NCBI RefSeq assembly: GCF_051903065.1 | Contig: NZ_CP178438.1 | DNA: 64,000 nucleotides | Strand: one strand, 5' to 3' | Source of the DNA: Escherichia coli | Lineage (GTDB): Bacteria; Pseudomonadota; Gammaproteobacteria; Enterobacterales; Enterobacteriaceae | In this document: piece by piece, positions 9,907 through 59,495 of the stretch | Layout: every line of letters begins with the position of its first letter | Position numbering within the stretch: the first letter of the stretch is position 1 | Notes under the pieces: generated by a model | What the model was told of the DNA's origin: nothing | Seen by the model: the letters and a program-made list of their open reading frames with translations, nothing else | Database searches by the model: none | Made by a program: the position numbers and the translations under genes

Positions 9907-9971
9907 AATAAGTCCTCACTATATTAAGATATTCAGTGATGAGATAAATAATCAGTTAATTAAGAACGATA

Positions 9972-10334: not shown

Positions 10335-10942
10335 TTTGCTGCTCCTCATCATATCGACCCTGCAAGGTCGGTTGGTTTCTCCACAAAACAGAGAAGAACA
10401 CCTGCGGTGGTAGCCGCCCGGATGGATTGGGTTATGAGCCCGTCGTCCGGTGATGCTCTTCTCTGTTTTGTAAAAAGAGCGGTACCAGCCGGAAGCAAGT
10501 GTACAAACTGGTACCGCCAAAGCAGTGGCTGTTGTGGTGGGGTTGTCACTCAGGCGTATGGTCAACCTGACAATCCGGTGTCCTCAACGGGGAAAGAGTA
10601 ACCCCGCCATACTTACCGCCGCGCCATTTCGCGGATTACCACAACGCTGAGAGCACTTAGCCAGTTACGGCACCACACTTTGTCGAGGTTCCATAAATGC
10701 CCTCATCGTTGCACCCTGGTCTCTTCCCAGGCGTCAAACCGAATCGCCACGCTGGTTAGGCGTCTTATCAGCATCCTCATTGACTTGCACATTCCGGCTA
10801 CCTGGTTTGTTTGCCCGAGCAAGGAGTGGATTGTCCCCTTTAACGTCCCCAGACCGCTAACGACGCATGTGCCATACGCCGTGTTACAACCAAATTTTGT
10901 CAGGACCTTGTTTGTTGGTCTGGAAAGAAAGATAAAATGAAA

Positions 10943-10980
10943 TTGCGTAACGTGCAAGTATTTTATTGCGAGATATGCAA
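10943..10980. promoter_or_regulatory. putative OL operators / pL region
   Basis: Two TTGC-N7-GCAA palindromes (TTGCGTAACGTGCAA 10943-10957; TTGCGAGATATGCAA 10966-10980), the same motif as at the cI/cro intergenic region. Confidence 0.5.
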
Positions 10981-10994
10981 TAGTGTGAGTAATG

Positions 10995-11016
10995 AAAAGC
11001 CACCTTCTGGTGGCTA
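10995..11016 (-). terminator. terminator downstream of the repressor gene
   Basis: GCCACC-ttct-GGTGGC hairpin (11000-11015) followed by a U-run on the minus strand. Confidence 0.55.
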
Positions 11017-11036
11017 ATTGATGTTGAGGTAGGGGG

Positions 11037-11729
11037 TTAATTGTGTCGCTTAAGGGTTTGTGACTGACTGATTAAGACCTTTCCAAAGACCATAAACCGG
11101 TGTTCGTTTTCGCTGGTAATTCCCCATTCGCGGTAAATCTGATTATCAGAAATTACCAGCAGTTTATCAGGTATCATTTGCAGTCGTTTGACGTAAATTT
11201 TATCATCAAAACCAAATACATATATACCATCCCCATCAAACTGATTGATACTGATATCAACGAAGATGAGATCTCCTGGCTCAATGGTTGGACACATACT
11301 GTCCCCACGAACGTTGATAACTTTAATGTGATTTGCTGGTCGTCCACCAAACATCGATACAGCATTATCAGTTCTGTATTCAATGGCATGAATCACATCA
11401 ATGACATCACCGCCCTGGATAAGGCCATTTCCCGCACTGGCACTGACATCCAGCATTTCAATACGGAATACATCCTTCACCTGCGCAACATCCTCACTAA
11501 TACTGTTTTTACATACAGTATTACTTTTGAGGTCTGAGGTAAAGAGATCAGCAATATCAACACCTAAGCTCCTGGCAATATTACTCAGGGCTTGTTCAGT
11601 GAATTGTTTCTGCTTACCTGTTTCGAGGCGCGAGATATTCGCCGCATCCACTCCTATTGCTTCAGCGAGATCGGCGATTTTCATGTTCTTCGCCTGGCGA
11701 AGTTGTCTGACTCGATTTCCTATGTTCAT
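11037..11729 (-). CDS. CI-like prophage repressor (HTH_XRE + S24 LexA-like peptidase domain)
   Basis: 230 aa; N-terminal IGNRVRQLRQAKNMKIADLAEAIGVDAANISRLETGK (HTH); C-terminal ..VRGDSMCPTIEPGDLIFVD...KRL (Ser/Lys autocleavage-type motifs). Confidence 0.85.
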   Translation of the reverse strand: MNIGNRVRQLRQAKNMKIADLAEAIGVDAANISRLETGKQKQFTEQALSNIARSLGVDIADLFTSDLKSNTVCKNSISEDVAQVKDVFRIEMLDVSASAGNGLIQGGDVIDVIHAIEYRTDNAVSMFGGRPANHIKVINVRGDSMCPTIEPGDLIFVDISINQFDGDGIYVFGFDDKIYVKRLQMIPDKLLVISDNQIYREWGITSENEHRFMVFGKVLISQSQTLKRHN

Positions 11730-11826
11730 GCGTTTATTACATTTCTTTATTGCGCGTTAAGCAAATCAACTTGCGCAAAATATTTGCGTGAAATAATATG
11801 CTCATCACGCAATATGTGGAGGTTAT
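11730..11826. promoter_or_regulatory. divergent PRM/PR promoter-operator region
   Basis: TTGCGCGTTAAGCAA (11750-11764; TTGC-N7-GCAA), palindromic TTGCGCAA (11771-11778), inverted repeat TTGCGTGA...TCACGCAA (11784-11812); candidate PR -35 TTGCGC / -10 TAATAT with 17-bp spacing. Confidence 0.6.
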
Positions 11827-12087
11827 ATGCAATCACCATTACGGAATGTGCGTAAGGCGCACGGATTTACTTTGCAGCATGTTGCTGCGGGCGTTCAGGT
11901 CAATCCAGCGACGCTGAGTCGTATTGAAAGACTGGAACAAATTCCATCTATCGATCTTGCAGAACGTCTGGCCAATTTTTTTAAGGGTGAAATCAGCGAA
12001 ATGCAGATTCTTTATCCGGCACGTTTTCAATCTAGCCAAAACCAGAATGGGTTTAAACCACAGGAACAGGAGGTAAGCCGTGGGTAA
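11827..12087 (+). CDS. Cro-like HTH regulator
   Basis: 86 aa; GGAGG RBS; ..AHGFTLQHVAAGVQVNPATLSRIER.. HTH; divergent from the repressor gene. Confidence 0.75.
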   Translation: MQSPLRNVRKAHGFTLQHVAAGVQVNPATLSRIERLEQIPSIDLAERLANFFKGEISEMQILYPARFQSSQNQNGFKPQEQEVSRG

Positions 12088-12631
12088 GCATCATTGGAAA
12101 GTGGAAAAACAACCTGAGTGGTACGTGAAAGCTGTCAGAAAAACTATCGCGGCATTGCCAGGGGGTTACGCTGAAGCTGCTGACTGGCTGGATGTAACAG
12201 AGAACGCTTTATTCAACCGCCTTCGTGCAGATGGCGATCAGATTTTCCCGTTGGGATGGGCAATGGTTTTACAGCGTGCTGCTGGCAATCACCACATTGC
12301 GGATGCTGTCGCACAGTCTGCTGGTGGGGTGTTTGTATCACTTCCTGAAATTGAGGAAGTAGAGAACGCCGATATCAACCAGCGCCTGCTGGAGGTCATT
12401 GAACAGATCGGCAGTTATTCCAGACAGATTCGTTCAGCAATTGAAGACGGGGTGGTGGAACCACACGAGCAGGCAGCAATTAACGACGAGCTGTACATGT
12501 CAATTTCGAAGCTGCAGGAGCATGCAGCACTGGTCTACAAAATCTTTTGCGCTCCAGAAAAGAGTGACGCCCGCGAGTGTGCAGCTCCGGGCGCCGTGGC
12601 GTTTTGTGTCTGTGGAGAAACTAACGCATGA
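12080..12631 (+). CDS. hypothetical early protein (position of a CII-like regulator)
   Basis: 183 aa, GTG start with AGGAGG RBS, overlaps the cro stop; family not recognised. Confidence 0.45.
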
Positions 12632-12966
12632 ACAGTTTAACAACACACTACCGTCGCTCGCAACTGATTGCGCTTCCTGTACCGGGTGGAAAAGCGAAGG
12701 TGGAGTATTGCTATGCAGTGAATGTACCAGGTGACAGGGAAATTGTAACCCACAGCTTTGCAGAGTGGGCTGTGGGTGATTTCAACCGGCAGAAGGAGAC
12801 AGTCCTTTGCGACAAGTTAACCGCTGGTTCAAAGATCACTACGGAGTGCCCGTCAGAGTCATTCGTTGGGAGCCGGAAACACAACGGGTTATCTACCTCC
12901 GTGAAGGCTATGAACATGAATGCTTCAGTCCGCTCGAACAGTTTCGTCGTAAATTCAGGGAAATAG
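12628..12966 (+). CDS. hypothetical protein; an overlapping ORF in another frame (12807-13019) may represent a frameshift or second gene
   Basis: ATGA start-stop overlap with the upstream gene; the alternative frame looks more protein-like toward the 3' end. Confidence 0.3.
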
Positions 12967-12975
12967 AGGTCGGTC

Positions 12976-13968
12976 ATGAGCCTGTTAATGACATCCCAGC
13001 CCATTGTGATAAATCGTGATCTTGCATGCCGTATTGGTCTGAATGAGGCAATTGTGTTGCAGCAGCTTCATTACTGGCTGAATGAAACGAATTCAGGCAC
13101 TGAGCATGGCGGAATTCGCTGGGTTTATAACACGACAGAACAGTGGCTGGAGCAGTTTCCGTTCTGGTCAGAGTCCACTCTGAAACGCACATTTGCAAGC
13201 CTGAAATCACTTGGGGTTTTGCGTCGCGAGCAACTCAATAAATCGAAGCGTGACATGACCAACTTCTACACGATCAACTATGAAAGTGAGCTTTTAGAAG
13301 AGGTCAAAGTGAACGAATCGATCAGGTCAAAATGCACTTCTCCATCGGGTCAAAGTGACCTGATGGATGGGCGCAAAATGACACGATCCATTGGTTCAAA
13401 ACGACACGCTGTCATCGGGTCAAAATGGCCCAATGATCTTACAGAGAATACAACAGAGATTACTACAGAGAATAAAACCTCTTCTCGTCCGGACGCTTCG
13501 CAACCGGACACGCAAACGGCTGAACAGGAGTTTTTAACTCGCCATCCTGATGCGGTTGTATTCAGCCCTAAAAAGCGCCAGTGGGGAACGCAGGATGATT
13601 TGACCTGCGCACAGTGGCTCTGGAAAAAAATCATCGCCCTGTACGAGCAGGCCGCCGAATGTGACGGCGAGGTGGTTCGTCCCAAAGAACCGAACTGGAC
13701 AGCCTGGGCAAACGAAATTCGCCTGATGTGTGTGCAGGATGGTCGTACTCACAAACAAATCTGCGAGATGTACAGCCGCGTCAGCCGCGATCCGTTCTGG
13801 TGCCGTAACGTGCTCAGCCCGTCGAAGTTGCGGGAAAAATGGGATGAGCTTTCCCTGCGCTTATCGCCGTCCGTCAGCACGCACACAGAAAAACGTGAAG
13901 ACCCGTACTTCAAAGCCAGTTACGACAACGTGGACTACAGCCAGATCCCGGCAGGATTCAGGGGGTGA
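12976..13968 (+). CDS. replication initiator (lambda O-like / DnaD-like N-terminal domain) containing the origin iterons
   Basis: 330 aa; N-terminal winged-helix-like region; iterons lie within the coding sequence, as in lambda O. Confidence 0.65.
   Translation: MSLLMTSQPIVINRDLACRIGLNEAIVLQQLHYWLNETNSGTEHGGIRWVYNTTEQWLEQFPFWSESTLKRTFASLKSLGVLRREQLNKSKRDMTNFYTINYESELLEEVKVNESIRSKCTSPSGQSDLMDGRKMTRSIGSKRHAVIGSKWPNDLTENTTEITTENKTSSRPDASQPDTQTAEQEFLTRHPDAVVFSPKKRQWGTQDDLTCAQWLWKKIIALYEQAAECDGEVVRPKEPNWTAWANEIRLMCVQDGRTHKQICEMYSRVSRDPFWCRNVLSPSKLREKWDELSLRLSPSVSTHTEKREDPYFKASYDNVDYSQIPAGFRG
13301..13475. repeat. putative phage origin: five GGT(C/T)CAAA(A/G)-type iterons plus AT-rich ACAGAGAATA repeats
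   Basis: GGTCAAAGTG (13303), GGTCAAAATG (13325), GGTCAAAGTG (13348), GGTTCAAAACG (13393), GGTCAAAATG (13418); ACAGAGAATA x2 at 13441-13475. Confidence 0.6.
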
Positions 13969-14459
13969 TCATGAGTCTTTTGAATGAAGTTCAGAAATTC
14001 ATTGAAGCCCATCCGGGGTGTACTTCCGGAGACATTGCGGATGCTTTTGCAGGTTACTCACGGCAGCGCGTTCTGCAGTCAGCAAGCAAGTTACGTCAGA
14101 GTGGGCGTGTGGCTCACCGTTGTGAAGGAGATACACGCAGACATTTCCCACGCCTGACTGAGAGAGCGCAGGAGCCGGAACCACAACCAGTTCGTGAAAC
14201 CAGACCTGTGCGCAATTTCTATGTCGGCACTAACGATCCCCGGGTGATTTTGTGCCTGACCCGCCAGGCGGAAGAACTGGAGTCCAGGGGCCTATACCGT
14301 CGTGCTGCAACGGTGTGGATGGCGGCATTCCGTGAAAGCCACTCCCAGCCAGAACGAAACAATTTTCTGGTGCGTCGTGAGCAGTGTTTACGGAAAAGCA
14401 GCAAGCGCGCTGTATCGGGTGATGAGTGGTATCTGTCAGGGAATTACGTGGGGGCTTAA
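13965..14459 (+). CDS. hypothetical protein (possible DNA-binding/replication accessory)
   Basis: 164 aa; ATGA overlap with the O-like gene; no family recognised. Confidence 0.4.
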   Translation: MIMSLLNEVQKFIEAHPGCTSGDIADAFAGYSRQRVLQSASKLRQSGRVAHRCEGDTRRHFPRLTERAQEPEPQPVRETRPVRNFYVGTNDPRVILCLTRQAEELESRGLYRRAATVWMAAFRESHSQPERNNFLVRREQCLRKSSKRAVSGDEWYLSGNYVGA

Positions 14460-15112
14460 TGAGTAATAAATATTGCCAGGAGCTGGTGGAACTGCGGAAC
14501 AAACCAGCCCATGAACTGAAGGAAGTGGGTGATCAGTGGCGCACGCCGGACAACATTTTCTGGGGAATTAACACCCTGTTTGGCCCGTTTGTTCTGGATC
14601 TGTTCACTGACGGTGATAACGCCAAATGTGCCGCGTATTACACGGCGGAAGACAACGCGCTGGCGCATGACTGGTCAGAACGCCTTGCGGAGCTTAAAGG
14701 TGCTGCCTTTGGTAATCCTCCATACAGCCGCGCCAGTCAGCATGAGGGGCAATACATCACCGGCATGCGTTACATCATGAAACATGCCAGTGCCATGCGT
14801 GATAAGGGCGGGCGCTATGTTTTCCTGATCAAAGCTGCCACCAGCGAAGTGTGGTGGCCGGAAGATGCAGATCATATTGCTTTTATTCGCGGGCGTATTG
14901 GTTTTGAACTGCCTGTCTGGTTTATCCCGAAAGACGAGAAGCAGGTACCGACAGGAGCTTTTTTCGCTGGTGCTATTGCTGTTTTTGACAAGACCTGGAA
15001 GGGACCGGCAATCAGCTACATCGGGCGCGATGAACTTGAGGCATGTGGTGAGGCGTTTCTGGCGCAGGTTCGCCAGCAGGCGGAAAAACTGGTCAGGGAG
15101 ATGGCGGCATGA
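14459..15112 (+). CDS. phage Dam-type N6-adenine DNA methyltransferase
   Basis: Start at the internal ATG overlapping the upstream stop (TAATG); catalytic ..AFGNPPYSRA.. (NPPY) motif. Confidence 0.7.
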   Translation: MSNKYCQELVELRNKPAHELKEVGDQWRTPDNIFWGINTLFGPFVLDLFTDGDNAKCAAYYTAEDNALAHDWSERLAELKGAAFGNPPYSRASQHEGQYITGMRYIMKHASAMRDKGGRYVFLIKAATSEVWWPEDADHIAFIRGRIGFELPVWFIPKDEKQVPTGAFFAGAIAVFDKTWKGPAISYIGRDELEACGEAFLAQVRQQAEKLVREMAA

Positions 15113-15435
15113 CGACATTAACTCAATGCCAGCAGCAGGTGCTGGATATGCTGATTTCTTATCAGAAAGAGCGTGGCTTTCCGCCAACCAATCAGGAGGT
15201 GGCAACCATGCTGGGATACCGTTCAGTGAATGCAGCGGTGGAGCATCTTCGCGCACTGGAGAAAAAAGGCGTCATCACGATAAAGCGTGGCGTGGCCCGG
15301 GGGATAACGCTTCATACCGCGGTGAAGGACGACGACAGCGAGGCGGTCGGGATTATCCGCGCACTGCTTGCCGGTGAGGAAAACGCAAGGCTGCGTGCAA
15401 CCCACTGGTTACATGAGAGGGACCTGAAAGTATGA
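15109..15435 (+). CDS. LexA N-terminal DNA-binding-domain-like protein lacking the peptidase domain
   Basis: 108 aa; MTTLTQCQQQVLDMLISYQKERGFPPTNQEVATMLGYRSVNAAVEHLRALEKKGVITIKRGVARGITL aligns by eye with host LexA residues 1-69 in this same window. Confidence 0.7.
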   Translation: MTTLTQCQQQVLDMLISYQKERGFPPTNQEVATMLGYRSVNAAVEHLRALEKKGVITIKRGVARGITLHTAVKDDDSEAVGIIRALLAGEENARLRATHWLHERDLKV

Positions 15436-15821
15436 AGCTGATCCTGCCTTTTCCGCCCAGCGTGAACACGTACTGGCGACACCCCAACAAAGGGGCATTT
15501 TCTGGTAAGAGCCTGATAAGCGCGGCGGGGCGAAAATTTCAGAGCGCGGCGTGCGCAGCAATAGTTGAGCAGTTACGTCGTCTGCCAAAACCAACGTCGG
15601 CACCTGCTTCAGTGGAGATCGTGTTGTTTCCTCCGGATAACCGGATCCGCGATCTGGACAACTATAACAAGGCGCTGTTTGACGCCCTGACCCACGCGGG
15701 TGTGTGGGAAGACGACAGACAGGTGAAAAGAATGCTGGTGGAGTGGGGACCGGTTATCCCGGAAGGGAAGGTCGAGATCACTATCAGTAAGTACGAGAAA
15801 ACGGCGGGTGCAGCCGCCTGA
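15432..15821 (+). CDS. rusA: RusA Holliday-junction resolvase
   Basis: 129 aa; ..LPFPPSVNTYWRH..RDLDNYNKALFDALTHAGVWEDDRQV.. matches the recalled RusA family pattern. Confidence 0.8.
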   Translation: MKLILPFPPSVNTYWRHPNKGAFSGKSLISAAGRKFQSAACAAIVEQLRRLPKPTSAPASVEIVLFPPDNRIRDLDNYNKALFDALTHAGVWEDDRQVKRMLVEWGPVIPEGKVEITISKYEKTAGAAA

Positions 15822-15840
15822 GCAAAAGGAGAAACGAAGT

Positions 15841-16650
15841 ATGAATAATCTGATGGTCATTGATGGTATTGAAGTTCGTCGTGATGCTTATGGGCGTTAC
15901 AGCCTGAACGATCTGCATCGCGCAGCAGTAGCATCTGGTGCAAATGCCAGAACCAAGGAGCCGGGAAAGTTTCTTTCCAGCCAACAAACTGTTGAGCTTG
16001 TTCATGAATTGACCAACACCCAGAATTTGGGTGTTGACCCGGTGAGTGTGATTCATGGGGGAAATGAAAGGGGAACGTATGTCTGCAAGGAACTGGTGTA
16101 TGCCTATGCAATGTGGATCAGCCCGTCATTCCATCTGAAGGTGATCCGTACTTTCGATATGGTAACCAGCGCACCGGAAAAATTATCCGGACAGGCTGCT
16201 GACAAGATGCAGGCTGGCGTGATCCTGCTGGACTTTATGCGCCGGGAGTTAAACCTGTCTAACTCTTCAGTGCTTGGTGCCTGTCAGAAACTCCAGGAGG
16301 CTGTTGGCTTACCGAATCTGGCACCGCGCTATGCCATTGATGCTCCTGCTGACGCGCCTGATGGCTCAAGCCGCCCCACGCTATCATTGAGTGCACTGCT
16401 GAAGCAGTATGGTATCCGCCTGACAGCTAATCAGGCATATCACCAGATGGCGAAGCTGGGGATCGTTGAACAACGTGAACGATACAGCCGCACTGCGATT
16501 AACAACATCAAAAAATTCTGGTCGCTGACAGCGAAAGGCTGCATGTTCGGCAAGAACATCACCAGTCCCGCAAATCCGCGCGAGACGCAGCCGCATTTCT
16601 TCGAATCCCGATTCCCTGAGCTGTTAAAGCTGCTCGATACCGTTCATTGA
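15841..16650 (+). CDS. KilA-N domain protein (anti-repressor-like)
   Basis: 270 aa; MNNLMVIDGIEVRRDAYGRYSLNDLHRAA.. N-terminus typical of KilA-N; ATG preceded by AAAGGAG. Confidence 0.6.
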   Translation: MNNLMVIDGIEVRRDAYGRYSLNDLHRAAVASGANARTKEPGKFLSSQQTVELVHELTNTQNLGVDPVSVIHGGNERGTYVCKELVYAYAMWISPSFHLKVIRTFDMVTSAPEKLSGQAADKMQAGVILLDFMRRELNLSNSSVLGACQKLQEAVGLPNLAPRYAIDAPADAPDGSSRPTLSLSALLKQYGIRLTANQAYHQMAKLGIVEQRERYSRTAINNIKKFWSLTAKGCMFGKNITSPANPRETQPHFFESRFPELLKLLDTVH

Positions 16651-16651
16651 G

Positions 16652-17647
16652 GTGACCGTGAGAGCACTACTGACTCCTGAAATTGCCCCGCGTATGGGGA
16701 TCGTATTGTTCAGGCCAGGTTCAGAGCTGATGCCCCTGTTTATGCAGGGGCGTGTCCTGTTGGAGCCTGAGCCGGAACGTTATTCATCTTTTGCCAGTGG
16801 TGCCGTTCCGGCGGTATCACAACCGCTGGCGGATGATCCTGCCGTTCGGGGCGTGTTCCGCAATGAGGCAGTGATCCGTCGTGCTGGTGGCGTGGAATGT
16901 CTTGAAAGCTGGTTACTTCGTGAAAAGGGCTGTCAGTGGCCTCATTCCGACTGGCACAGCGAGAACATGACCACAATGCGGCACGCGCCGGGCGCAATCC
17001 GTCTGTGCTGGCACTGCGATAACCAGCTGCGCGATCAGTTCACGGAACGGCTGGAATCAATGGCAACGGATAACTGTGCCCGCTGGGTATTGTCTGTTGT
17101 GCGTCGGGATCTCGGTTTTGATGATAGTCACGTTGTGACAATGCCGGAACTGTGCTGGTGGCTGGTTCGTAATGACCTGGCGGATGCCTTACCGGAAAGT
17201 GCAGCCCGTAAGGCACTGAGATTACCGAAGCCTGTTGTGCCGTCTGTCACCCGGGAAAGTGACCTTGTGCCTTCGGTTCCTGCCACCAGCATCATCCAGG
17301 ATAAGGCGAAAAAGGTGCTGGCGCTGAAAGTGGATCCGGAGTCGCCGGAGTCTTTTATGTTACGCCCAAAACGTCGCCGCTGGGTTAATGAAAAGTACAC
17401 GCGCTGGGTTAAGACACAGCCGTGTGCATGTTGTGGAAAGCCCGCTGATGATCCCCACCACCTGATAGGCCACGGTCAGGGGGGAATGGGTACAAAAGCG
17501 CATGACCTCTTTGTGTTGCCTTTGTGCAGAAAGCATCACGACGAGCTGCATGCGGATACCGTGGCATTTGAAGAGAAGTATGGCTCCCAGTTGGAGCTGA
17601 TATTTCGTTTTATCGATCGTGCGCTGGCAATAGGCGTACTGGCGTAA
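16652..17647 (+). CDS. DUF968-type nin-region protein with C-terminal Cys/His nuclease-like motif
   Basis: C-terminus ..CACCGKPADDPHHLIGHGQGGMGTKAHDLFVLPLCRKHHDELH..; start may be the GTG at 16658. Confidence 0.55.
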   Translation: MTVRALLTPEIAPRMGIVLFRPGSELMPLFMQGRVLLEPEPERYSSFASGAVPAVSQPLADDPAVRGVFRNEAVIRRAGGVECLESWLLREKGCQWPHSDWHSENMTTMRHAPGAIRLCWHCDNQLRDQFTERLESMATDNCARWVLSVVRRDLGFDDSHVVTMPELCWWLVRNDLADALPESAARKALRLPKPVVPSVTRESDLVPSVPATSIIQDKAKKVLALKVDPESPESFMLRPKRRRWVNEKYTRWVKTQPCACCGKPADDPHHLIGHGQGGMGTKAHDLFVLPLCRKHHDELHADTVAFEEKYGSQLELIFRFIDRALAIGVLA

Positions 17648-17660
17648 GTGGAGAACGAGC

Positions 17661-18413
17661 ATGAACCTTGAAGCCTTACCAAAATATTACTCCCCAAAAT
17701 CTCCCAAATTGAGCGATGAGGCACCGGCGACAGGCTCGAGTGGTTTAACGATTACGGATGTGATGGCTGCGCAGGGGATGGTGCAGTCGAAAGCACCGCT
17801 TGGGTTTGCCTTATTTCTGGCAAAAGTTGGTGTTCAGGATCCTCAGTTTGCGATTGAAGGTCTGCTCAATTACGCGATGGCACTGGATAACCCGACATTG
17901 AACAAATTGAGTGAAGAAACCCGGTTACAGATCATCCCTTACCTTGTGAATTTTGCCTTTGCTGATTATTCCAGGTCTGCTGCAAGTAAGGCTCGCTGTG
18001 AGCATTGTGCTGGTACTGGATTTCATAATGTATTGCGCGAAGTGGTGAAACACTCCAGAAGCGGGGAATCTGTTATCAAGGAAGAGTGGGTGAAGGAACT
18101 ATGTCAGCATTGTTATGGTAAGGGAGAGGTCAGCACAGCGTGTAGAGGGTGTAAGGGGAAAGGTATTGTACTGGATGAAAAAAGAACCCGGCTTCATGGT
18201 GCGCCTGTTTATAAGGTTTGTGGGCGTTGCAATGGAAACCGGTTTAGCCGTTTACCAACCACACTGGCGCGGCATCATGTCCAGAAGCTGGTACCGGATC
18301 TGACGGATTATCAGTGGTACAAAGGATATGCAGATGTCATTGATAAACTGGTTACAAAGTGCTGGCAGGAAGAAGCATATGCAGAGACACAATTGAGAAA
18401 AGTGACAAGATAA
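17661..18413 (+). CDS. late-gene antiterminator Q-like protein
   Basis: 250 aa with multiple CxxC pairs; placed immediately upstream of a promoter-terminator pair and the lysis cassette. Confidence 0.55.
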   Translation: MNLEALPKYYSPKSPKLSDEAPATGSSGLTITDVMAAQGMVQSKAPLGFALFLAKVGVQDPQFAIEGLLNYAMALDNPTLNKLSEETRLQIIPYLVNFAFADYSRSAASKARCEHCAGTGFHNVLREVVKHSRSGESVIKEEWVKELCQHCYGKGEVSTACRGCKGKGIVLDEKRTRLHGAPVYKVCGRCNGNRFSRLPTTLARHHVQKLVPDLTDYQWYKGYADVIDKLVTKCWQEEAYAETQLRKVTR

Positions 18414-18444
18414 ATGATTTTCGCCGAAGATGGCGACATGATGC

Positions 18445-18473
18445 TTGCATTTTTCAAAAAATATGGATAAGAT
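18445..18473 (+). promoter_or_regulatory. candidate late promoter (pR'-like)
   Basis: TTGCAT (18445-18450), 17-bp spacer, TAAGAT (18468-18473), about 50 nt upstream of a strong terminator. Confidence 0.4.
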
Positions 18474-18518
18474 TTTCCCAACGATGGGCTTTGTATGTCT
18501 ACCGTTGATAAGATTTAA

Positions 18519-18546
18519 GAACCCGCCACTGAGCGGGTTTTTTGTA
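18519..18546 (+). terminator. tR'-like rho-independent terminator
   Basis: ACCCGC-cactga-GCGGGT followed by TTTTTTG. Confidence 0.75.
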
Positions 18547-18641
18547 CCTGTAAACTTGGTGCAGTACAGTAAACACGCTGGTGGTCGTGAATACTGACTT
18601 TTTATCTTGCTGGATTTTTAGACAAGAGTTATTGGTATGTC

Positions 18642-18869
18642 ATGTTAACCAGAAGGGAAAAAGACATGCTAAAACAGCAAGATATGACAGAAACCGCCGC
18701 CGCAGTCCTTCATTTCTTACCTGCTGACAAGTGGGTAACGCCACGCATGATGACGAGAACTACCGGAGTAAGCGAAGCCCGGTGCCAGTTAATACTGACT
18801 CAGTTAGTTCTGGCGGGTCTGGCGAAGGATAACGGCGGGTACGGGAATAAATTCAGACGCTGCCAGTAA
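18642..18869 (+). CDS. small hypothetical protein (possible winged-helix regulator)
   Basis: 75 aa; first gene after the late terminator; start could be the ATG at 18666. Confidence 0.35.
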   Translation: MLTRREKDMLKQQDMTETAAAVLHFLPADKWVTPRMMTRTTGVSEARCQLILTQLVLAGLAKDNGGYGNKFRRCQ

Positions 18870-19019
18870 TGGCGGTTTCCTGCTGTGAAAATGGGCGGCT
18901 GGTGGGTGTTGGTAGCACCTGCCAGCCATTCGCTCATGCTTACTGGTCACAAGCGAACCACGGCCCACTGCTTTAGCGCAAAAGCAGAGTGAGCCTACCA
19001 GAGTTACGCTTACTGATCC

Positions 19020-20072
19020 ATGAAAAATACTGTAAAAATAAACAGTGTTGATTTAATCAACGCTGATTGCCTGCATTTTATTCAGTCCCTGCCTGATGAT
19101 TCCATTGACCTGATTGTTACCGATCCGCCTTACTTCAAGGTGAAACCTAACGGTTGGGACAATCAGTGGAAAGGGGACGAAGATTACCTTAAGTGGCTGG
19201 ACCACTGTCTGGCCCAGTTCTGGCGGGTGTTGAAACCTGCCGGAAGCCTTTACCTGTTCTGTGGGCATCGCCTGGCATCTGATATTGAGATCATGATGCG
19301 TGAACGTTTCAACGTGCTTAACCATATCATCTGGGCGAAGCCGTCCGGACGTTGGAATGGGTGTAATAAAGAAAGTCTGCGCGCATATTTTCCTGCCACA
19401 GAGCGCGTTCTGTTTGCTGAACATTACCAGGGGCCATATCGCGGCAAAAGTGACGGCTATGCGGCAAAAGAAAGGGAACTCAAACAGCACATAATGGCAC
19501 CGCTGATATCGTATTTCAGGGATGCTCGTGCCGAACTGGGTATAACGGCAAAACAAATTGCCGAAGCCACAGGTAAGAAAAATATGGTTTCCCACTGGTT
19601 TGGTGCCAGTCAGTGGCAGTTGCCGAATGAGGCTGACTATCGGAAGTTACAGGCACTGTTTTCCCGTATAGCGGCAGAGAAGTTTCAGGAACAACAACTG
19701 GAACAACCACACCACCAGCTGGTGGCATCTTATGATTCACTGAATCGCAAATATTCTGAATTGCTGGATGAGTTTAAATCTCTCCGGCGCTATTTCTCCG
19801 TATCAGTCTCCGTGCCTTATACCGATGTCTGGACGCATAAGCCCGTTCAGTTCTACCCGGGTAAACATCCGTGCGAGAAACCGACGGATATGCTCCGGCA
19901 AATAATCAATGCCAGTAGTCGACCTGGTGATCTGGTTGCTGATTTCTTTATGGGATCCGGTTCCACAATAAAAGCAGCAATGGCGCTGGGGCGTCGGGCG
20001 TTAGGTGTTGAACTTGAGTCAGAGCGGTTTAATCAGACGGTGAAAGAGGTAAGTGAACTGGTGGGGAAATAA
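19020..20072 (+). CDS. DNA methyltransferase (beta-class N6-adenine or N4-cytosine; DPPY motif)
   Basis: 350 aa; ..DLIVTDPPYF.. (motif IV) near the N-terminus and ..FFMGSGST.. (motif I) near the C-terminus. Confidence 0.75.
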   Translation: MKNTVKINSVDLINADCLHFIQSLPDDSIDLIVTDPPYFKVKPNGWDNQWKGDEDYLKWLDHCLAQFWRVLKPAGSLYLFCGHRLASDIEIMMRERFNVLNHIIWAKPSGRWNGCNKESLRAYFPATERVLFAEHYQGPYRGKSDGYAAKERELKQHIMAPLISYFRDARAELGITAKQIAEATGKKNMVSHWFGASQWQLPNEADYRKLQALFSRIAAEKFQEQQLEQPHHQLVASYDSLNRKYSELLDEFKSLRRYFSVSVSVPYTDVWTHKPVQFYPGKHPCEKPTDMLRQIINASSRPGDLVADFFMGSGSTIKAAMALGRRALGVELESERFNQTVKEVSELVGK

Positions 20073-20148
20073 TTCTGGTGGCCACGTTGCGTGGCCTTTT
20101 TATTTCCAACACAGCACCCGCAAATATCGCGAGGTGAGAGATGACGAA

Positions 20149-20484
20149 ATGCCTCATAACCCAAATACCTGGCCGGACTGGCTGGAGTTGTTTCAGAGCT
20201 GGTGGCGTGGAGACACACCGCTGGGTGCAGTGATTATGTCGATCGTTATGGCTGGTTTGCGCATCGCCTATTTTGGCGGTGGTGGTGGCTGGAAGCGAAA
20301 AACGCTCGAGATTTTGCTCTGTGGCGCTCTGACGCTGACCTTTGCATCCGCTCTTGAATATGTCGGATGGCCTAAATCGCTTTCTGTTGCCATTGGTGGT
20401 GGCGTGGGGCTGATCGGTGTCGATGCTATTCGTGGGGCTGCAATGCGAGTAATCGGTAACAAATTTGGTAGCTCGAAGGAGTAA
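20149..20484 (+). CDS. holin
   Basis: 111 aa from the internal ATG with RBS; hydrophobic segments and charged C-terminus; immediately upstream of the endolysin. Confidence 0.65.
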   Translation: MPHNPNTWPDWLELFQSWWRGDTPLGAVIMSIVMAGLRIAYFGGGGGWKRKTLEILLCGALTLTFASALEYVGWPKSLSVAIGGGVGLIGVDAIRGAAMRVIGNKFGSSKE

Positions 20485-20487
20485 TTT

Positions 20488-20964
20488 ATGCAGGCACTAA
20501 ATTCCCAGCGTAAAGCTTTCCTGGATATGGTGGCATGGTCAGAAGGAACGGATAACGGGCGACAACCGACACGTAACCACGGTTATGATGTTATTGTTGG
20601 TGGCGAACTGTTCACTGATTACTCCGATCACCCTCGCAAACTTGTCACGCTAAACCCAAAACTCAAATCAACAGCCGCCGGACGTTACCAGCTTCTTTCC
20701 CGTTGGTGGGATGCCTATCGTAAGCAGCTTGGCCTGAAAGACTTCTCTCCGAAAAGCCAGGACGCTGTGGCATTGCAGCAGATTAAGGAGCGTGGCGCTT
20801 TACCGATGATTGATCGCGGTGATATCCGTCAGGCTATCGATCGTTGCAGCAATATCTGGGCGTCGTTACCTGGTGCAGGTTATGGTCAGTATGAACATAA
20901 AATCAGTGATCTGATTTCCCGGTTTAAAGAGGCTGGTGGGGTGGTAAATGAAGTTGAGCTATAA
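20488..20964 (+). CDS. R: endolysin, lambda R-like lytic transglycosylase
   Basis: 158 aa; ..NSQRKAFLDMVAWSEGTDNGRQPTRNHGYDVIVGGELFTDYSDHPRK.. closely matches the recalled lambda R sequence. Confidence 0.9.
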   Translation: MQALNSQRKAFLDMVAWSEGTDNGRQPTRNHGYDVIVGGELFTDYSDHPRKLVTLNPKLKSTAAGRYQLLSRWWDAYRKQLGLKDFSPKSQDAVALQQIKERGALPMIDRGDIRQAIDRCSNIWASLPGAGYGQYEHKISDLISRFKEAGGVVNEVEL

Positions 20965-21340
20965 GCTGGTTATCGCTGCATTCTTCTTTACTGTCATCGG
21001 TTCTTTCATCTGGTCTGCCAACCACTACTACAGCAAATATCAGCACGAAAAGAAACGTGCTGATGAGGCTGTACAAAATGCCAAATCGGCAACTGTCATT
21101 ACCAATAACGTCCTGCAATCACTGCAAATCGTCAATACAGTTCTGGAGGCTAACCAGCATGCAAAACAGCAGATCACACTGGAGTCACAGAGAACCCAGG
21201 AAGATATCAAAGTGGCTGTTGCGGATGATGATTGTGCTTCACGTCCTGTGCCTGCTGCCGCTGCTGACCGGTTGCGGAAGTACGCGAACAGTTTACGTAC
21301 CGATTCCGGCGGTACCGTTGCCAGCAAGCCTGACTACTGA
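20948..21340 (+). CDS. i-spanin (Rz-like)
   Basis: 130 aa with N-terminal TM segment and coiled-coil-like remainder; overlaps the endolysin stop. Confidence 0.7.
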   Translation: MKLSYKLVIAAFFFTVIGSFIWSANHYYSKYQHEKKRADEAVQNAKSATVITNNVLQSLQIVNTVLEANQHAKQQITLESQRTQEDIKVAVADDDCASRPVPAAAADRLRKYANSLRTDSGGTVASKPDY

Positions 21341-21497
21341 AACTCCCCAGCCAGTCATTCCCGAGCCGCTGACCTATGGGGCCAGTCTGGATCTGAATGT
21401 GAGCCTGCTTTCGGCGTTGGGACAATGCAATATTGACAAAGCGGGGATTCGAAGTATCGAGATGCGCCGTAACGCTTTGCTGGCAGCAGGCAAATAG
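21225..21497 (+). CDS. o-spanin (Rz1-like lipoprotein), +1 frame overlapping Rz
   Basis: MMIVLHVLCLLPLLTGCGS.. lipobox (LTGC), Pro-rich mature region; starts inside Rz and extends beyond it. Confidence 0.65.
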   Translation: MMIVLHVLCLLPLLTGCGSTRTVYVPIPAVPLPASLTTETPQPVIPEPLTYGASLDLNVSLLSALGQCNIDKAGIRSIEMRRNALLAAGK

Positions 21498-21523
21498 TCC
21501 GGACAAAGAACAGGAATATATTT

Positions 21524-21874
21524 ATGCCCCCTCGAACTCCAAAAGCCTGCCGCGTTCGCGGCTGCCGTAATACCACGACAGACCCGTCAGGCTACTGCGA
21601 AAGCCACAAAAGCGAAGGCTGGAAGCAATACAAGTCAGGACAATCCCGTCATCAGCGCGGTTATGGTTCTAAGTGGGATGTTATCCGTGTGCGTGTGCTG
21701 CAACGTGACAAAGGCCTGTGTCAGTTATGTCTGCGTGCCGGTGTGGCGCGTGAAGCGAAAACCGTTGACCACATCATCCCTAAAGCACATGGCGGCACTG
21801 ATGCCGACAGTAATCTGCAGAGTCTGTGCTGGCCGTGTCATAAGGCGAAGACGGCCCGTGAACGGCTTAAGTGA
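21524..21874 (+). CDS. HNH endonuclease (terminase-associated)
   Basis: 116 aa; ..CQLCLRAG....VDHIIPKAHGGTDADSNLQSLCWPCHKAKT.. HNH motif; just upstream of terminase. Confidence 0.8.
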   Translation: MPPRTPKACRVRGCRNTTTDPSGYCESHKSEGWKQYKSGQSRHQRGYGSKWDVIRVRVLQRDKGLCQLCLRAGVAREAKTVDHIIPKAHGGTDADSNLQSLCWPCHKAKTARERLK

Positions 21875-21999
21875 TAATAACTCTCAACTGTCTGAGGGGA
21901 GGGGCGGGTCAAATCTCTGTGACCTGACGTCTTCCGGACTGCCCGCCCCATCGTTTTTTTATACCCGCGAAAAATGAAATTTAACCAGGAGTGCCGCAT

Positions 22000-22494
22000 A
22001 TGGCTGGAACGGCGGGGCGTTCCGGGCGTCGCCCCAAGCCAACGGCGCGCAAGGCGCTGGCCGGAAACCCCGGCAAGCGAGCCCTGAACAAAGATGAACC
22101 TGTTTTTACGCCCATCAAAGGGGTTGAGCCACCGGAGTGGTTCGCAGAAGAAGATCTCCCTCTCGCTACGATCATGTGGCAACTGACAACTAAAGAACTC
22201 TGCGGTCAGGGTCTGCTGTGCGTGACTGACCTCGCGGTGCTTGAGCGGTGGTGCGTGGCCTACGAGTTCTGGCGACGTGCCGTGAAAAATATTGCCAGAC
22301 AGGGCAACACCATCACCGGTGCAATGGGCGGTATGGTCAAAAATCCGGAGCTGACCGCCAAAAAAGAACAGGAGTCCGAGATGAGCAGTACGGGGGCAAT
22401 GCTCGGACTCGACCCCAGCAGCCGCCAGCGTCTGATTGGCCTGGCGGGGCAGAAGAAAGCCACTAACCCGTTTCTGAAAATCATCGAATCATGA
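22000..22494 (+). CDS. terminase small subunit
   Basis: ATG at 22000, 9 nt after AGGAG; ~165 aa; directly upstream of and overlapping the terminase large subunit. Confidence 0.7.
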
Positions 22495-24224
22495 GCCGGA
22501 AATCTTACCCCAACGTAAATGCTGCCAATCAGTATGCCCGTGATGTCGTGCGCGGAAAGATTGTGGCCTGCCAGTTTGTGATTCAGGCCTGCCAGCGCCA
22601 TCTTGATGACCTGATGGAGGAAAAAAGTAAGTCGTTTCGTTACCGCTTCGACAAGGACCTGGCTGAACGGGCCGCGAAATTTATTCAGCTGTTGCCGCAC
22701 ACCAAGGGTGAGTGGGCATTTAAACGGATGCCCATCACGCTGGAGCCGTGGCAGCTATTTGTGATCTGCTGTGCGTTTGGCTGGGTCAATAAAGGCACCC
22801 GGTTGCGCCGCTTCCGGGAGGTGTATACCGAAATTCCCCGTAAGAACGGCAAATCGGCAATCTCTGCCGGTGTTGCCCTGTATTGTTTTGCCTGTGATAA
22901 CGAGTTCGGCGCGGAAGTGTATTCCGGTGCCACGACGGAGAAACAGGCATGGGAAGTCTTTCGTCCGGCACGACTGATGTGTAAACGCACACCCATGCTG
23001 ACGGAAGCGTTCGGGATTGAGGTTAACGCCTCAAACATGAACCGTCCGGAGGATGGTGCGCGGTTTGAACCGCTGATCGGTAACCCCGGTGATGGTTCAT
23101 CACCCCACTGTGCCGTGGTGGATGAATATCACGAGCACGCCACAGATGCGCTTTACACCACGATGCTTACCGGGATGGGGGCGCGACGCCAGCCACTGAT
23201 GTGGGCCATTACCACCGCCGGGTACAACATTGAGGGGCCGTGCTACGACAAACGGCGGGAAGTCATCGAGATGCTCAACGGCTCGGTGCCCAACGATGAA
23301 CTGTTCGGGATCATCTATACCGTTGACGAAGGCGACGACTGGACCGACCCGCAGGTACTTGAAAAAGCTAACCCGAATATCGGTGTGTCGGTTTATCGCG
23401 AGTTTTTGTTAAGCCAGCAGCAACGTGCGAAAAATAACGCCCGTCTGGCAAACGTCTTTAAAACAAAACACCTCAATATCTGGGTGTCGGCGCGTTCGGC
23501 GTATTTCAACCTGGTGAGCTGGCAGAGCTGCGAGAATAAATCACTGACCCTTGAGCAGTTTGAGGGGCAGCCGTGCATTCTGGCCTTTGACCTGGCGCGT
23601 AAGCTGGATATGAACAGTATGGCGCGACTTTATACCCGCGAGATTGACGGTAAAACGCATTACTACAGTGTGGCTCCGCGCTTCTGGGTACCGTATGACA
23701 CGGTGTACAGCGTCGAGAAAAATGAAGATCGCCGGACAGCCGAACGCTTTCAGAAATGGGTGGAAATGGGCGTTCTGACCGTTACCGATGGTGCGGAGGT
23801 GGATTATCGCTACATCCTCGAGGAGGCCAAAGCGGCGAACAAAATCAGCCCGGTCAGTGAGTCACCCATCGACCCCTTCGGGGCGACCGGGCTGTCGCAT
23901 GACCTTGCGGATGAAGACCTGAACCCCATCACCATCATTCAGAACTACACCAACATGTCCGACCCGATGAAAGAGCTGGAAGCGGCAATTGAATCGGGGC
24001 GTTTTCATCATGACGGCAATCCCATCATGACCTGGTGTATCGGCAACGTGGTCGGCAAAACCATTCCGGGTAACGATGATGTGGTGAAGCCCGTCAAGGA
24101 GCAGGCGGAAAACAAAATTGATGGTGCAGTTGCGCTGATTATGGCGGTTGGCAGAGCCATGCTGTACGAGAAAGAAGACACGCTGTCTGATCACATTGAG
24201 TCCTACGGGATCCGCTCGCTTTAA
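22491..24224 (+). CDS. terminase large subunit
   Basis: 577 aa; size, position and ATPase/nuclease-like organisation. Confidence 0.8.
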
Positions 24225-24235
24225 CTGAGGTAATT

Positions 24236-24418
24236 ATGATCATGCTGATTCTCGCGCCTCTGGTGGGCGTGCTGGGTGCGCTTTTGCTGGCGTATGGTGC
24301 CTGGCTGATTTATCCCCCGGCTGGGTTTGTTGTTGCCGGGGCGCTGTGCCTGTTCTGGTCGTGGCTGGTGGCGCGATATCTCGACCGTACACAGCCGTCT
24401 GTCGGCGGAGGTAAATAG
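24236..24418 (+). CDS. small membrane protein (hypothetical)
   Basis: 60 aa with two hydrophobic segments, between terminase and portal. Confidence 0.35.
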
Positions 24419-25659
24419 TGTTCTTTTCGGGATTATTTCAACGAAAAAGTGACGCACCGGTGACCACGCCAGCAGAGCTGGCGGATGCTATCGGGCTGTC
24501 ATATGACACCTATACCGGAAAGCAGATCAGCAGCCAGCGGGCCATGCGACTGACGGCGGTTTTTTCCTGCGTCAGGGTGCTGGCGGAGTCGGTCGGGATG
24601 TTGCCCTGCAACCTGTATCACCTGAACGGCAGCCTGAAACAGAGAGCCACCGGCGAACGTCTGCATAAGCTGATCTCCACGCATCCCAATGGCTATATGA
24701 CGCCGCAGGAGTTCTGGGAGCTGGTGGTCACCTGTCTGTGCCTGCGGGGAAACTTTTACGCCTACAAAGTGAAAGCATTTGGCGAAGTGGCTGAACTGCT
24801 GCCCGTCGATCCCGGCTGTGTGGTACCGAAGCTTAACAGTAGCTGGGAGCCGGTCTATCAGGTCACATTCCCGGATGGCTCCACGGATGTACTGAGCCAG
24901 GAGGATATCTGGCATGTGCGCACGCTGACGCTGGACGGATTGGTGGGGCTGAATCCCATCGCCTATGCCCGCGAGGCAATATCGCTGGCGGCAGCGACCG
25001 AAGAGCACGGGGCCAGACTGTTCAGCAATGGCGCGGTGACGTCGGGTGTGTTGCGTACAGAGCAGACGCTGTCGGATCAGGCTTATGAGCGCCTGAAGAA
25101 AGATTTTGAGGAGCGTCACACCGGGCTTGGCAATGCTCACCGCCCGATGATCCTTGAGATGGGGCTGGACTGGAAGTCGATGGCGCTGAACGCCGAGGAC
25201 AGCCAGTTCCTGGAAACCCGCAAGTTTCAGCTTGAAGAAATCTGTCGTCTGTTCCGGGTGCCGTTGCACATGGTGCAGAACACCGATCGCGCCACCTTCA
25301 ACAATATCGAAGAGCTGGGGCTGGGATTTATCAACTATTCACTGGTGCCGTATCTGACCCGCATCGAACAGCGGATCAACACCGGACTGGTACGAAAAAG
25401 TAAGCAGGGCGTTTATTACGCCAAATTTAACGCCGGGGCGTTACTGCGCGGGGATATGAAGTCCCGTTTTGAAGCCTACGCCACCGGGATCAACTGGGGA
25501 ATTTACTCTCCCAATGACTGCCGCGACCTGGAAGATATGAATCCGCGTCCCGGTGGTGATGTCTATCTCACACCGATGAACATGACCACGAAACCCTCCG
25601 ATGGCAGTAAAGCCGGTAAGCAGAAGGATAACGCCAATGCAGACGAAACAACGTCTTGA
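24418..25659 (+). CDS. portal protein (HK97-like)
   Basis: 413 aa, GTG start; position after terminase, before protease. Confidence 0.75.
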   Translation: MFFSGLFQRKSDAPVTTPAELADAIGLSYDTYTGKQISSQRAMRLTAVFSCVRVLAESVGMLPCNLYHLNGSLKQRATGERLHKLISTHPNGYMTPQEFWELVVTCLCLRGNFYAYKVKAFGEVAELLPVDPGCVVPKLNSSWEPVYQVTFPDGSTDVLSQEDIWHVRTLTLDGLVGLNPIAYAREAISLAAATEEHGARLFSNGAVTSGVLRTEQTLSDQAYERLKKDFEERHTGLGNAHRPMILEMGLDWKSMALNAEDSQFLETRKFQLEEICRLFRVPLHMVQNTDRATFNNIEELGLGFINYSLVPYLTRIEQRINTGLVRKSKQGVYYAKFNAGALLRGDMKSRFEAYATGINWGIYSPNDCRDLEDMNPRPGGDVYLTPMNMTTKPSDGSKAGKQKDNANADETTS

Positions 25660-59467: not shown

Positions 59468-59495
59468 AGCGCCACAAGGGCGCTTTAGTTTGTTT
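59465..59495 (+). terminator. rho-independent terminator after soxR
   Basis: AAAGCGCC-acaag-GGCGCTTT followed by a T-rich run. Confidence 0.65.

What the first reader, a model, noticed from the sequence alone, without database searches (positions are those of the whole stretch)
21875..21999. GC-rich dyad followed by a T-run between the HNH endonuclease and terminase small subunit (possible cos/packaging or terminator element)
GGGGCGGG ... CCCGCCCC flank a ~40-nt spacer and are followed by TCGTTTTTTTAT, at the position where HNH-terminase phages usually carry the cos site.
Basis: inference. Interest (0 to 1): 0.3.

Follow-up and report, generated by a model that had tools for sequence, protein, structure and literature searches.

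The report
Prophage cos (cohesive-end packaging) site

Summary
GGGGCGGG (21901-21908) and CCCGCCCC (21942-21949) are a perfect 8-bp inverted repeat with a 33-nt spacer (not ~40). A T7 run lies at 21954-21960. All of it sits in the 125-bp gap between an HNH endonuclease gene and the small terminase gene.

It is the cos site. The right arm lies inside TGCCCGCCCC (21940-21949). That 10-mer is identical to the cohesive end mapped by run-off sequencing of phage SfI virion DNA. It is homologous to the annotated phiP27 cos-site, to the 10-base 3' extension of Burkholderia phage phi644-2, and to the HK97 end.

The dyad is not the functional unit. Across 34 diverged relatives the two arms pair no better than shuffled columns, and the central pair is broken in 24 of 34. 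What is conserved is a row of blocks at fixed distances from the cut:
- a G-rich block followed by an AAATC box, upstream;
- GGAC and the left part of the cohesive end;
- a T-tract and CCCGCGAAAAATGAAATTTAA downstream, which changes with small-terminase type and is probably its binding site.

A terminator reading is not supported: the loop is 33 nt, the U-run is offset, and stability is not unusual.

Verdict: already known, low interest.

The parts
21524..21874 (+). HNH endonuclease gene (116 aa), last gene before cos; counterpart of HK97 gp74
   Evidence: Pfam HNH PF01844, E=5e-16. 40% identity over 65 aa to HK97 gp74, E=6e-11. 52% identity to phi644-2 gp71.
21895..21908 (+). G-rich block AGGGGAGGGGCGGG (-55..-42 from the top-strand cut); contains the left arm of the dyad (21901-21908)
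   Evidence: G in 28 of 29 representatives at -49..-46 and -43. Present in HK97, phiP27, phi644-2, EPP-1, the Klebsiella phages and F1055 whatever their TerS type.
21909..21919 (+). TCAAATC-TCTG box (-41..-31): AAATC nearly invariant, then YCTG
   Evidence: A at -38 and -37 in 29/29, A at -39 in 28/29, T-36 and C-35 in 26/29. Same distance from the cut in HK97 (ATCAAATC) and in every relative checked.
21920..21935 (.). Variable spacer (-30..-15)
   Evidence: Low information content. No excess of short palindromes (Fisher p=0.25).
21936..21939 (+). GGAC (-14..-11). The bottom-strand nick is inferred between 21939 and 21940.
   Evidence: A-12 and C-11 in 29/29, G-14 in 28/29. Nick position follows from the 10-nt 3' extensions of phi644-2 and HK97 and the 10-nt gap in SfI.
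21940..21949 (+). Cohesive-end sequence TGCCCGCCCC (cosN equivalent); contains the right arm of the dyad (21942-21949). Top-strand nick between 21949 and 21950.
   Evidence: Identical to the mapped SfI cohesive end. Homologous to the phiP27 'cos-site' feature CGCCCGCCCC, to the phi644-2 3' extension CGCCCGCTTC and to the EPP-1 record end TGCCCGCCTC. G-9, C-8, C-7 and C-4 invariant.
21950..21960 (+). TC at +2/+3 completes a loose GAC-N10-(R)TC symmetry around the nicks.
   Evidence: T at +7..+10 in 28-29 of 29; T+2 in 24/29, C+3 in 25/29.
21961..21984 (+). ATACCCGCGAAAAATGAAATTTAA (+12..+35): putative small-terminase recognition site (cosB equivalent)
   Evidence: The 21 nt at +15..+35 are identical in Burkholderia phage phi644-2, whose TerS is only 53% identical in protein. 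A 20-nt core (+16..+35) is identical in EPP-1 and the Klebsiella phages. The block is replaced by unrelated sequence where TerS is unrelated: HK97 and F1055. HK97 TerS binds +15..+29 (PMC11331095).
21987..21991 (+). Shine-Dalgarno AGGAG for TerS
   Evidence: Read from the sequence, 8 nt before the ATG at 22000.
22000..22494 (+). Small terminase subunit (164 aa), P27 family
   Evidence: Pfam Terminase_4 PF05119, E=2e-21. 49% identity to phiP27 L35 and 53% to phi644-2 gp1.
22491..24224 (+). Large terminase subunit (577 aa), HK97 type
   Evidence: Pfam TerL_ATPase and TerL_nuclease. 26% identity to HK97 gp2 over about 520 aa, E=1e-29.

Best explanation
This is the cos site of a lambdoid prophage with an SfV/SfI-type, HK97-like packaging module. 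After induction, concatemeric phage DNA is cut here by the large terminase together with the adjacent HNH endonuclease. The cuts are directed by the P27-family small terminase. Two nicks 10 bp apart flank TGCCCGCCCC: top strand between 21949 and 21950, bottom strand between 21939 and 21940. They give 10-nt 3' cohesive ends. Packaging then proceeds rightwards from the terS side, and the ends re-anneal after injection. The left arm is part of a G-rich block and AAATC box held at -55..-31, shared with HK97. I infer that this upstream element positions the TerL/HNH nuclease or signals termination, like lambda cosQ. The T-run and CCCGCGAAAAATGAAATTTAA at +5..+35 are inferred to be the small-terminase binding site (cosB equivalent). 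What is shown: sequence identity or homology to ends mapped in other phages, and the conservation pattern. What is inferred: that this particular prophage still packages, which nuclease makes which nick, and what the flanking blocks do.
For: (1) SfI virion ends mapped by run-off sequencing leave a 10-nt gap, TGCCCGCCCC (PMC3636060), which is window 21940-21949. The SfI record ends at the homologue of 21949 with 55 nt identical to the window and starts at the homologue of 21950. (2) The circularised SfV junction reads the same as the whole intergenic region. (3) The phiP27 record annotates the homologous 10-mer CGCCCGCCCC as 'cos-site'. (4) phi644-2 has 10-base 3' extensions, 5'-CGCCCGCTTC-3' (PMC2920897), at the homologous position. 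The EPP-1 record, corrected with PhageTerm, breaks at the same base. (5) HK97, with 10-nt 3' overhangs (PMC9410871), has the same layout: a G-run, TCAAATC at -41..-35 and GAC at -13..-11. (6) The gene set fits: HNH, Terminase_4 TerS, HK97-type TerL, portal and S78 protease. HK97 gp74 HNH stimulates cos cleavage by TerL in vitro. (7) Block-wise conservation at fixed spacing in 29-34 representatives. (8) The right-hand block tracks TerS type, and HK97 TerS binds +15..+29.
Against: No virion DNA from this prophage was examined, so the prophage could be defective and the site unused. Most relatives used for the downstream block were retrieved with an exact 20-nt pattern taken from that block, so its conservation is partly built in. 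The retrievals that did not use it are phi644-2, EPP-1, the Klebsiella phages and phiP27. The functions given to the G-block/AAATC box and to the downstream block rest on analogy with HK97 and lambda, and window TerS shows no sequence similarity to HK97 TerS. The original SfV, phiP27 and Kala et al. papers could not be read.
Confidence: 0.93

Rival explanations
1. Rho-independent terminator ending HNH/late-operon transcription: the GC dyad forms an RNA hairpin and the U-run releases the transcript.
For: In the window alone the arms pair in the predicted RNA fold, and a U7 run lies nearby.
Against: The loop is 33 nt and the U-run starts 4 nt after the stem. The terminator scan (loop 3-8, tail within 0-2 nt) did not call it. 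Folding energy is within the range of shuffles (z -0.82 and -1.28). Across 34 relatives the arms pair in 72.4% of cells against 76.4% when shuffled, the central pair is broken in 24 of 34, and there is no covariation. The RNAalifold consensus is -1.81 kcal/mol. In relatives the T-run is shorter and starts 5-6 nt after the arm. From general knowledge of lambdoid phages, late transcription has to read from the lysis genes through cos into terS.
Confidence: 0.04
2. The dyad is needed as a DNA structure or symmetric site: a cruciform, or a two-fold binding site for a terminase dimer centred near 21925.
For: The 8-bp complementarity is perfect in the window, SfV, SfI and phiP27. An all-G/C dyad followed by a T-run appeared in 0 of 100 simulated sequences.
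Against: The mapped nicks flank the right arm only and are not symmetric about the dyad centre. HK97 and the L040/L104 lineage lack the dyad but keep the G-block. There are no compensatory changes, and controls slid by 1-3 columns give similar pairing, 61-67%. The DNA fold has z -1.47.
Confidence: 0.06
3. Chance GC-rich inverted repeat in a non-functional spacer.
For: 8-bp inverted repeats are frequent in the window: 119 observed.
Against: Block-wise conservation at fixed spacing from E. coli phages to Burkholderia phages, while the 20 nt just after the HNH stop and the -30..-15 spacer vary freely. Coincidence with mapped genome ends.
Confidence: 0.01

Closest known systems
cos of Shigella phages SfI / SfV / SfII / SfIV
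   Same: Same sequence. The intergenic region equals the circularised SfV junction. The cohesive end TGCCCGCCCC and the 55 nt before the cut equal SfI. Same order of HNH, cos, TerS and TerL.
   Different: Here it lies in an E. coli prophage whose early region is mEp460-like. No virion data exist for this copy.
cos of Stx2e phage phiP27 (type member of the P27 small-terminase family)
   Same: Annotated 10-nt cos-site CGCCCGCCCC at the homologous position. Same G-block, TCAAATC, GGAC and ACCCGCGAAA. TerS 49% identical.
   Different: First base of the end is C rather than T. The spacer and the distal part of the downstream block differ.
cos of Burkholderia phages phi644-2 / phiE125
   Same: 10-base 3' extensions CGCCCGCTTC at the homologous position. 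The 21 nt CCCGCGAAAAATGAAATTTAA are identical. HNH 52% and TerS 53% identical.
   Different: The AAATC box is replaced by GAAAAAG. The host is a beta-proteobacterium.
HK97 cos
   Same: 10-nt 3' overhang, HNH-assisted cleavage by TerL, G-run plus TCAAATC at -41..-35, GAC at -13..-11, GC-rich left part of the end. TerS site lies a few bp downstream of the cut and combines CCCG with an A/T tract.
   Different: TerS is unrelated in sequence. The downstream block differs (CTAACCCGATTTTTT at +15..+29). The overhang is CGCCGCCAAA. There is no dyad between the G-run and the overhang.
Lambda cos (cosQ-cosN-cosB)
   Same: Works alike: a nick site flanked downstream by a TerS-specific initiation site and upstream by a conserved element at a fixed distance. 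cosB is specificity-determining and cosQ/cosN are conserved (PMC4669245).
   Different: From general knowledge, lambda gives 12-nt 5' overhangs, has no HNH partner, and has Nu1 R-sites plus an IHF site. No sequence similarity was seen. It is not a member of this family.

Membership tests
HK97-like / P27-type cos site with 10-nt 3' cohesive ends | Lies between the HNH endonuclease gene (end of the late/lysis region) and the small terminase gene | tested here: met
   HNH 21524-21874, TerS 22000-22494, element 21895-21984.
HK97-like / P27-type cos site with 10-nt 3' cohesive ends | Carries the cohesive-end sequence mapped experimentally in a family member | tested here: met
   Window 21940-21949 is the SfI end TGCCCGCCCC. 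Homologous to the phiP27, phi644-2 and HK97 ends.
HK97-like / P27-type cos site with 10-nt 3' cohesive ends | Conserved flanking blocks at fixed distance from the cut: G-block/AAATC, GGAC, downstream A/T tract | tested here: met
   the register is the same in 29 ungapped representatives.
HK97-like / P27-type cos site with 10-nt 3' cohesive ends | Cognate enzymes encoded next to it: HK97-type TerL, HNH, Terminase_4 TerS | tested here: met
HK97-like / P27-type cos site with 10-nt 3' cohesive ends | Virion DNA of this element ends here with 10-nt 3' overhangs | not testable with these tools
   Needs induction of the prophage and end mapping.
Intrinsic (Rho-independent) terminator | Compact GC-rich hairpin with a short loop | tested here: not met
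   33-nt loop. Not called by the scan.
Intrinsic (Rho-independent) terminator | U-tract directly after the stem | tested here: not met
   4-nt gap in the window. In relatives the T-run starts 5-6 nt after the arm.
Intrinsic (Rho-independent) terminator | Stem kept by covariation, or stability above background | tested here: not met
Lambda-type cos | 12-nt 5' overhang, Nu1/gpA terminase, R-sites and an IHF site in cosB | tested here: not met
   The homologous ends are 10-nt 3' extensions. TerS is Terminase_4. R-sites and IHF sites were not searched for systematically.
Known RNA family (Rfam) | Match to any Rfam covariance model | tested here: not met
   No match at E<=1 in 21500-22300.

The most novel reading that the evidence does not exclude
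The upstream G-rich block and AAATC box (-55..-31) may be a distinct cos subsite that has not been characterised. It is kept at the same distance from the cut in HK97, SfV-like, phiP27, Klebsiella, Edwardsiella and Burkholderia phages, whatever their small-terminase type. It could be a cosQ-like termination signal or a docking site for the TerL/HNH nuclease. Separately, both nicks lie just 5' of GTC on the nicked strand in most relatives (GAC-N10-GTC; ATC on the right in the window). This resembles the CG^GT specificity of terminase-linked HNH nickases of Gram-positive phages (PMC3592412). It hints that the HNH enzyme makes at least the bottom-strand nick. I found no description of either point in the papers I could read, but several key papers were not available.
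Probability: 0.3. Interest if true: 0.4.

Novelty: already known. Interest (0 to 1): 0.12.

Why it matters
It fixes where packaged DNA of this widespread prophage family begins and ends. The 125-bp element is present in 1119 of 5426 complete E. coli genomes, and no annotated feature lay under the match in any of the eight records listed. Knowing the cut site helps with prophage annotation, with setting the start of phage genome records, and with predicting which elements could be packaged by the same terminase. The comparative map of conserved blocks gives concrete targets for experiments on how HNH-dependent terminases recognise and cut cos.

Tried and rejected
- Rfam scan of 21500-22300 at E<=1: nothing.
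- Promoter scan of 20500-23500: none.
- Hairpin or terminator reading: energies within the range of shuffles; no covariation.
- Lineage-specific short palindromes in the variable spacer (-34..-11) as a hidden dyad element: some relatives have 5-7 bp stems, but overall there is no excess over shuffles (mean best stem 3.68 against 3.20, Fisher p=0.25). Rejected.
- G-quadruplex in the G-block: read by eye, only three G-runs in the window (GGGG, GGGG, GGG), so there is no canonical four-run motif. Not pursued.
- Full-text searches for GGTCAAATC and TGCCCGCCCC returned only unrelated primer hits among the ten papers listed for each.
- The original SfV (PMID 11889106), phiP27 (PMC127862) and Kala et al. 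2014 (PMC4000778) papers are not held. Statements about them come from citing papers and GenBank features.
- The starts of the SfV, SfIV, SfII and ST64B records fall at the homologues of 21933, 21933, 21875 and 21985. They are arbitrary linearisation points, not physical ends, and were not used as evidence.

Full report
**Observation**

The sequence is as described. The HNH ORF ends at 21874 and the TerS ATG is at 22000. Within the gap, GGGGCGGG (21901-21908) and CCCGCCCC (21942-21949) are a perfect 8-bp inverted repeat separated by 33 nt (I10). The right arm is followed by ATCG and then T7 (21954-21960).

Eight-bp inverted repeats are common in the window: 119 observed, against 46 +/- 8.5 in Markov simulations. 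An all-G/C repeat followed by a T-run occurred once in the window and in 0 of 100 simulations. That test was chosen after seeing the site.

**What it is**

BLAST against phage records shows a packaging module 94-99% identical to SfV, SfI, SfII, SfIV and several E. coli and Salmonella phages.

- The SfI paper mapped virion ends by run-off sequencing and found a 10-nt gap, 5'-TGCCCGCCCC-3' (PMC3636060).
- The SfI record ends at the homologue of 21949, with its last 55 nt identical to the window, and starts at the homologue of 21950.
- The circularised SfV junction reads the same as the whole intergenic region.
- The phiP27 record annotates the homologous CGCCCGCCCC as "cos-site".
[quoted passage not shown] Its record breaks at the homologous base.
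- The Edwardsiella phage EPP-1 record, corrected with PhageTerm, ends in TGCCCGCCTC at the same position.
- HK97, whose ends carry 10-nt 3' overhangs (PMC9410871), shows the same layout.

A gap in both run-off reads, rather than an overlap, is what 3' overhangs give. This is my inference, and it agrees with phi644-2 and HK97. The top-strand nick is therefore placed at 21949|21950 and the bottom-strand nick at 21939|21940.

**Anatomy from comparison**

I collected 47 variants downstream of HNH homologues. I collected 70 more with the exact pattern CCGCGAAAAATGAAATTTAA. To these I added HK97, phiP27, EPP-1, phi644-2, F1055 and L040. Thirty-four representatives, thinned so that none is 93% or more identical to another, were aligned (A1).

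Relative to the cut, the conserved blocks are:

| Block | Position | Notes |
|---|---|---|
| G-rich block | -54..-42 | G in 28/29 at five positions |
| AAATC | -39..-35 | A-38 and A-37 in 29/29 |
| CTG | -33..-31 | |
| GGAC | -14..-11 | A-12 and C-11 in 29/29 |
| YGCC and C | -10..-7 and -4 | inside the cohesive end |
| TC | +2, +3 | T in 24/29, C in 25/29 |
| TTTTTA | +7..+12 | |
| CCCGCGAAAAATGAAATTTAA | +15..+35 | partly selected by the search pattern |

The 20 nt just after the HNH stop, the spacer at -30..-15, and positions -6, -5 and -3..-1 of the overhang all vary. The TCAAATC box sits at -41..-35 in the window, HK97, phiP27 and the Klebsiella phages. EPP-1 has a variant of it, GTAAATC, at the same place.

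**The dyad is incidental**

On A1 the eight window pairs form standard pairs in 72.4% of cells. Shuffled partners give 76.4%, and partners slid by 1-3 columns give 61-67%. The central C:G pair is broken in 24 of 34 sequences. RNAalifold finds no consensus structure (-1.81 kcal/mol). HK97 and the L040/L104 lineage keep the G-block but not the complementarity. So a G-rich block faces a C-rich cohesive end, and in this lineage they happen to be exactly complementary.

**Terminator rival**

The loop is 33 nt and the U-run starts 4 nt after the stem. In relatives the T-run starts 5-6 nt after the arm. The scan does not call it. The fold is no more stable than shuffles. From general knowledge of lambdoid late operons, transcription must also pass from the lysis genes and HNH through cos into terS.

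**How it most likely works**

The genes are an HNH endonuclease, a Terminase_4 (P27-family) TerS, an HK97-type TerL, a portal and an S78 protease. TerL is 26% identical to HK97 gp2 (E=1e-29) and HNH is 40% identical to gp74 over 65 aa. In HK97, gp74 stimulates cos cleavage by TerL. TerS binds +15..+29, recognising a G and the adjacent A-tract by DNA shape (PMC9410871 and PMC11331095).

In this family the downstream block tracks TerS type:
- It is identical over 21 nt in phi644-2, where TerS is 53% identical in protein.
- It is partly kept in phiP27 (TerS 49% identical).
- It is replaced where TerS is unrelated, as in HK97 and F1055.

The upstream blocks and the left part of the end are shared by all. 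I therefore assign +5..+35 to TerS (cosB-like) and the 10-mer plus GGAC to the nuclease. The G-block/AAATC box would be a nuclease-positioning or termination element, analogous to lambda cosQ (PMC4669245). These three assignments are inference.

The bracket GAC-N10-(G/A/C)TC places each nick 5' of GTC on its own strand in most relatives. This recalls the CG^GT specificity of terminase-linked HNH nickases (PMC3592412). It is only a lead.

**Caveats**

- No virion data exist for this prophage.
- The downstream-block conservation is partly selected by the search pattern. The confirmations retrieved without it are phi644-2, EPP-1, the Klebsiella phages and phiP27.

**Novelty and score**

The site is already known: the sequence is the same as in SfI and SfV, where cos was mapped (SfI) or postulated (SfV). 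The element is widespread, in 1119 of 5426 complete E. coli genomes, with no annotated feature under the match in the eight records listed. Interest is low. The only mildly new point is the family-wide block architecture that includes HK97.

Noticed in passing
L104/L043, L040, L045, L148/L075 (viral contigs) compared with window 21895-21984: cos is a mosaic junction. L043/L104 combine the L040-type left half (GGAGGGGGAGGGG...TGCCCGCCTC) with the window-type right half. L040 and L045 carry the same HNH (94% identity or more) but an F1055-type right half and an unrelated TerS. Recombination seems to swap the TerS-side and HNH-side halves at the cut.
   Followed up: partly
window 21944-21955 and 22008-22019: Imperfect inverted repeat CGCCCCATCGTT / AACGGCGGGGCG (83% complementary, 52 nt apart, I4). 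It links the cut site to a GGCGGGGCG motif inside the first codons of terS. The motif is also in the Klebsiella phages and partly in phi644-2. It could be a further terminase contact or chance.
   Followed up: no
window 21875-21999, as found in RefSeq E. coli genomes: The 125-bp element occurs in 1119 of 5426 complete E. coli genomes, up to 4 copies per genome, with 13 places on plasmids. No annotated feature lay under the match in the eight records listed.
   Followed up: partly
GenBank records SfV U82619.2, SfIV KC814930, SfII KC736978, ST64B AY055382: These records start at the homologues of window 21933, 21933, 21875 and 21985. None of these is the mapped cohesive end (21949|21950), so their first base should not be read as a physical genome end.
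   Followed up: yes
L018 / L163 (IMGVR_UViG_2778261634_000011): One relative has a 1-nt deletion in the C-run of the cohesive end (GACTGCCCGCCC-ATCG). It may be a decaying prophage or a sequencing error in a homopolymer.
   Followed up: no
window 59460-59600 (-): sraL Hfq-binding sRNA (Rfam RF01408, 153 bits), so the right part of the window is E. coli chromosome outside the prophage. ARAGORN found no tRNA gene anywhere in the window.
   Followed up: no
window ~4750-20900 compared with 21400-25000: The prophage is mosaic. The early/regulatory region with the DNA methyltransferase ORF (19020-20072) matches mEp460-like phages at about 97%, while the HNH-terminase module matches SfV/SfI.
   Followed up: no
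window 21524-21620 (N-terminus of the HNH protein): The HNH protein has an N-terminal Cys/His cluster (C-x4-C ... C-x2-H: CRVRGC...YCESH) ahead of the HNH domain. This resembles the zinc-ribbon plus HNH 'Group 1' layout of sequence-specific phage nickases described in PMC3592412. HK97 gp74 lacks it there.
   Followed up: no
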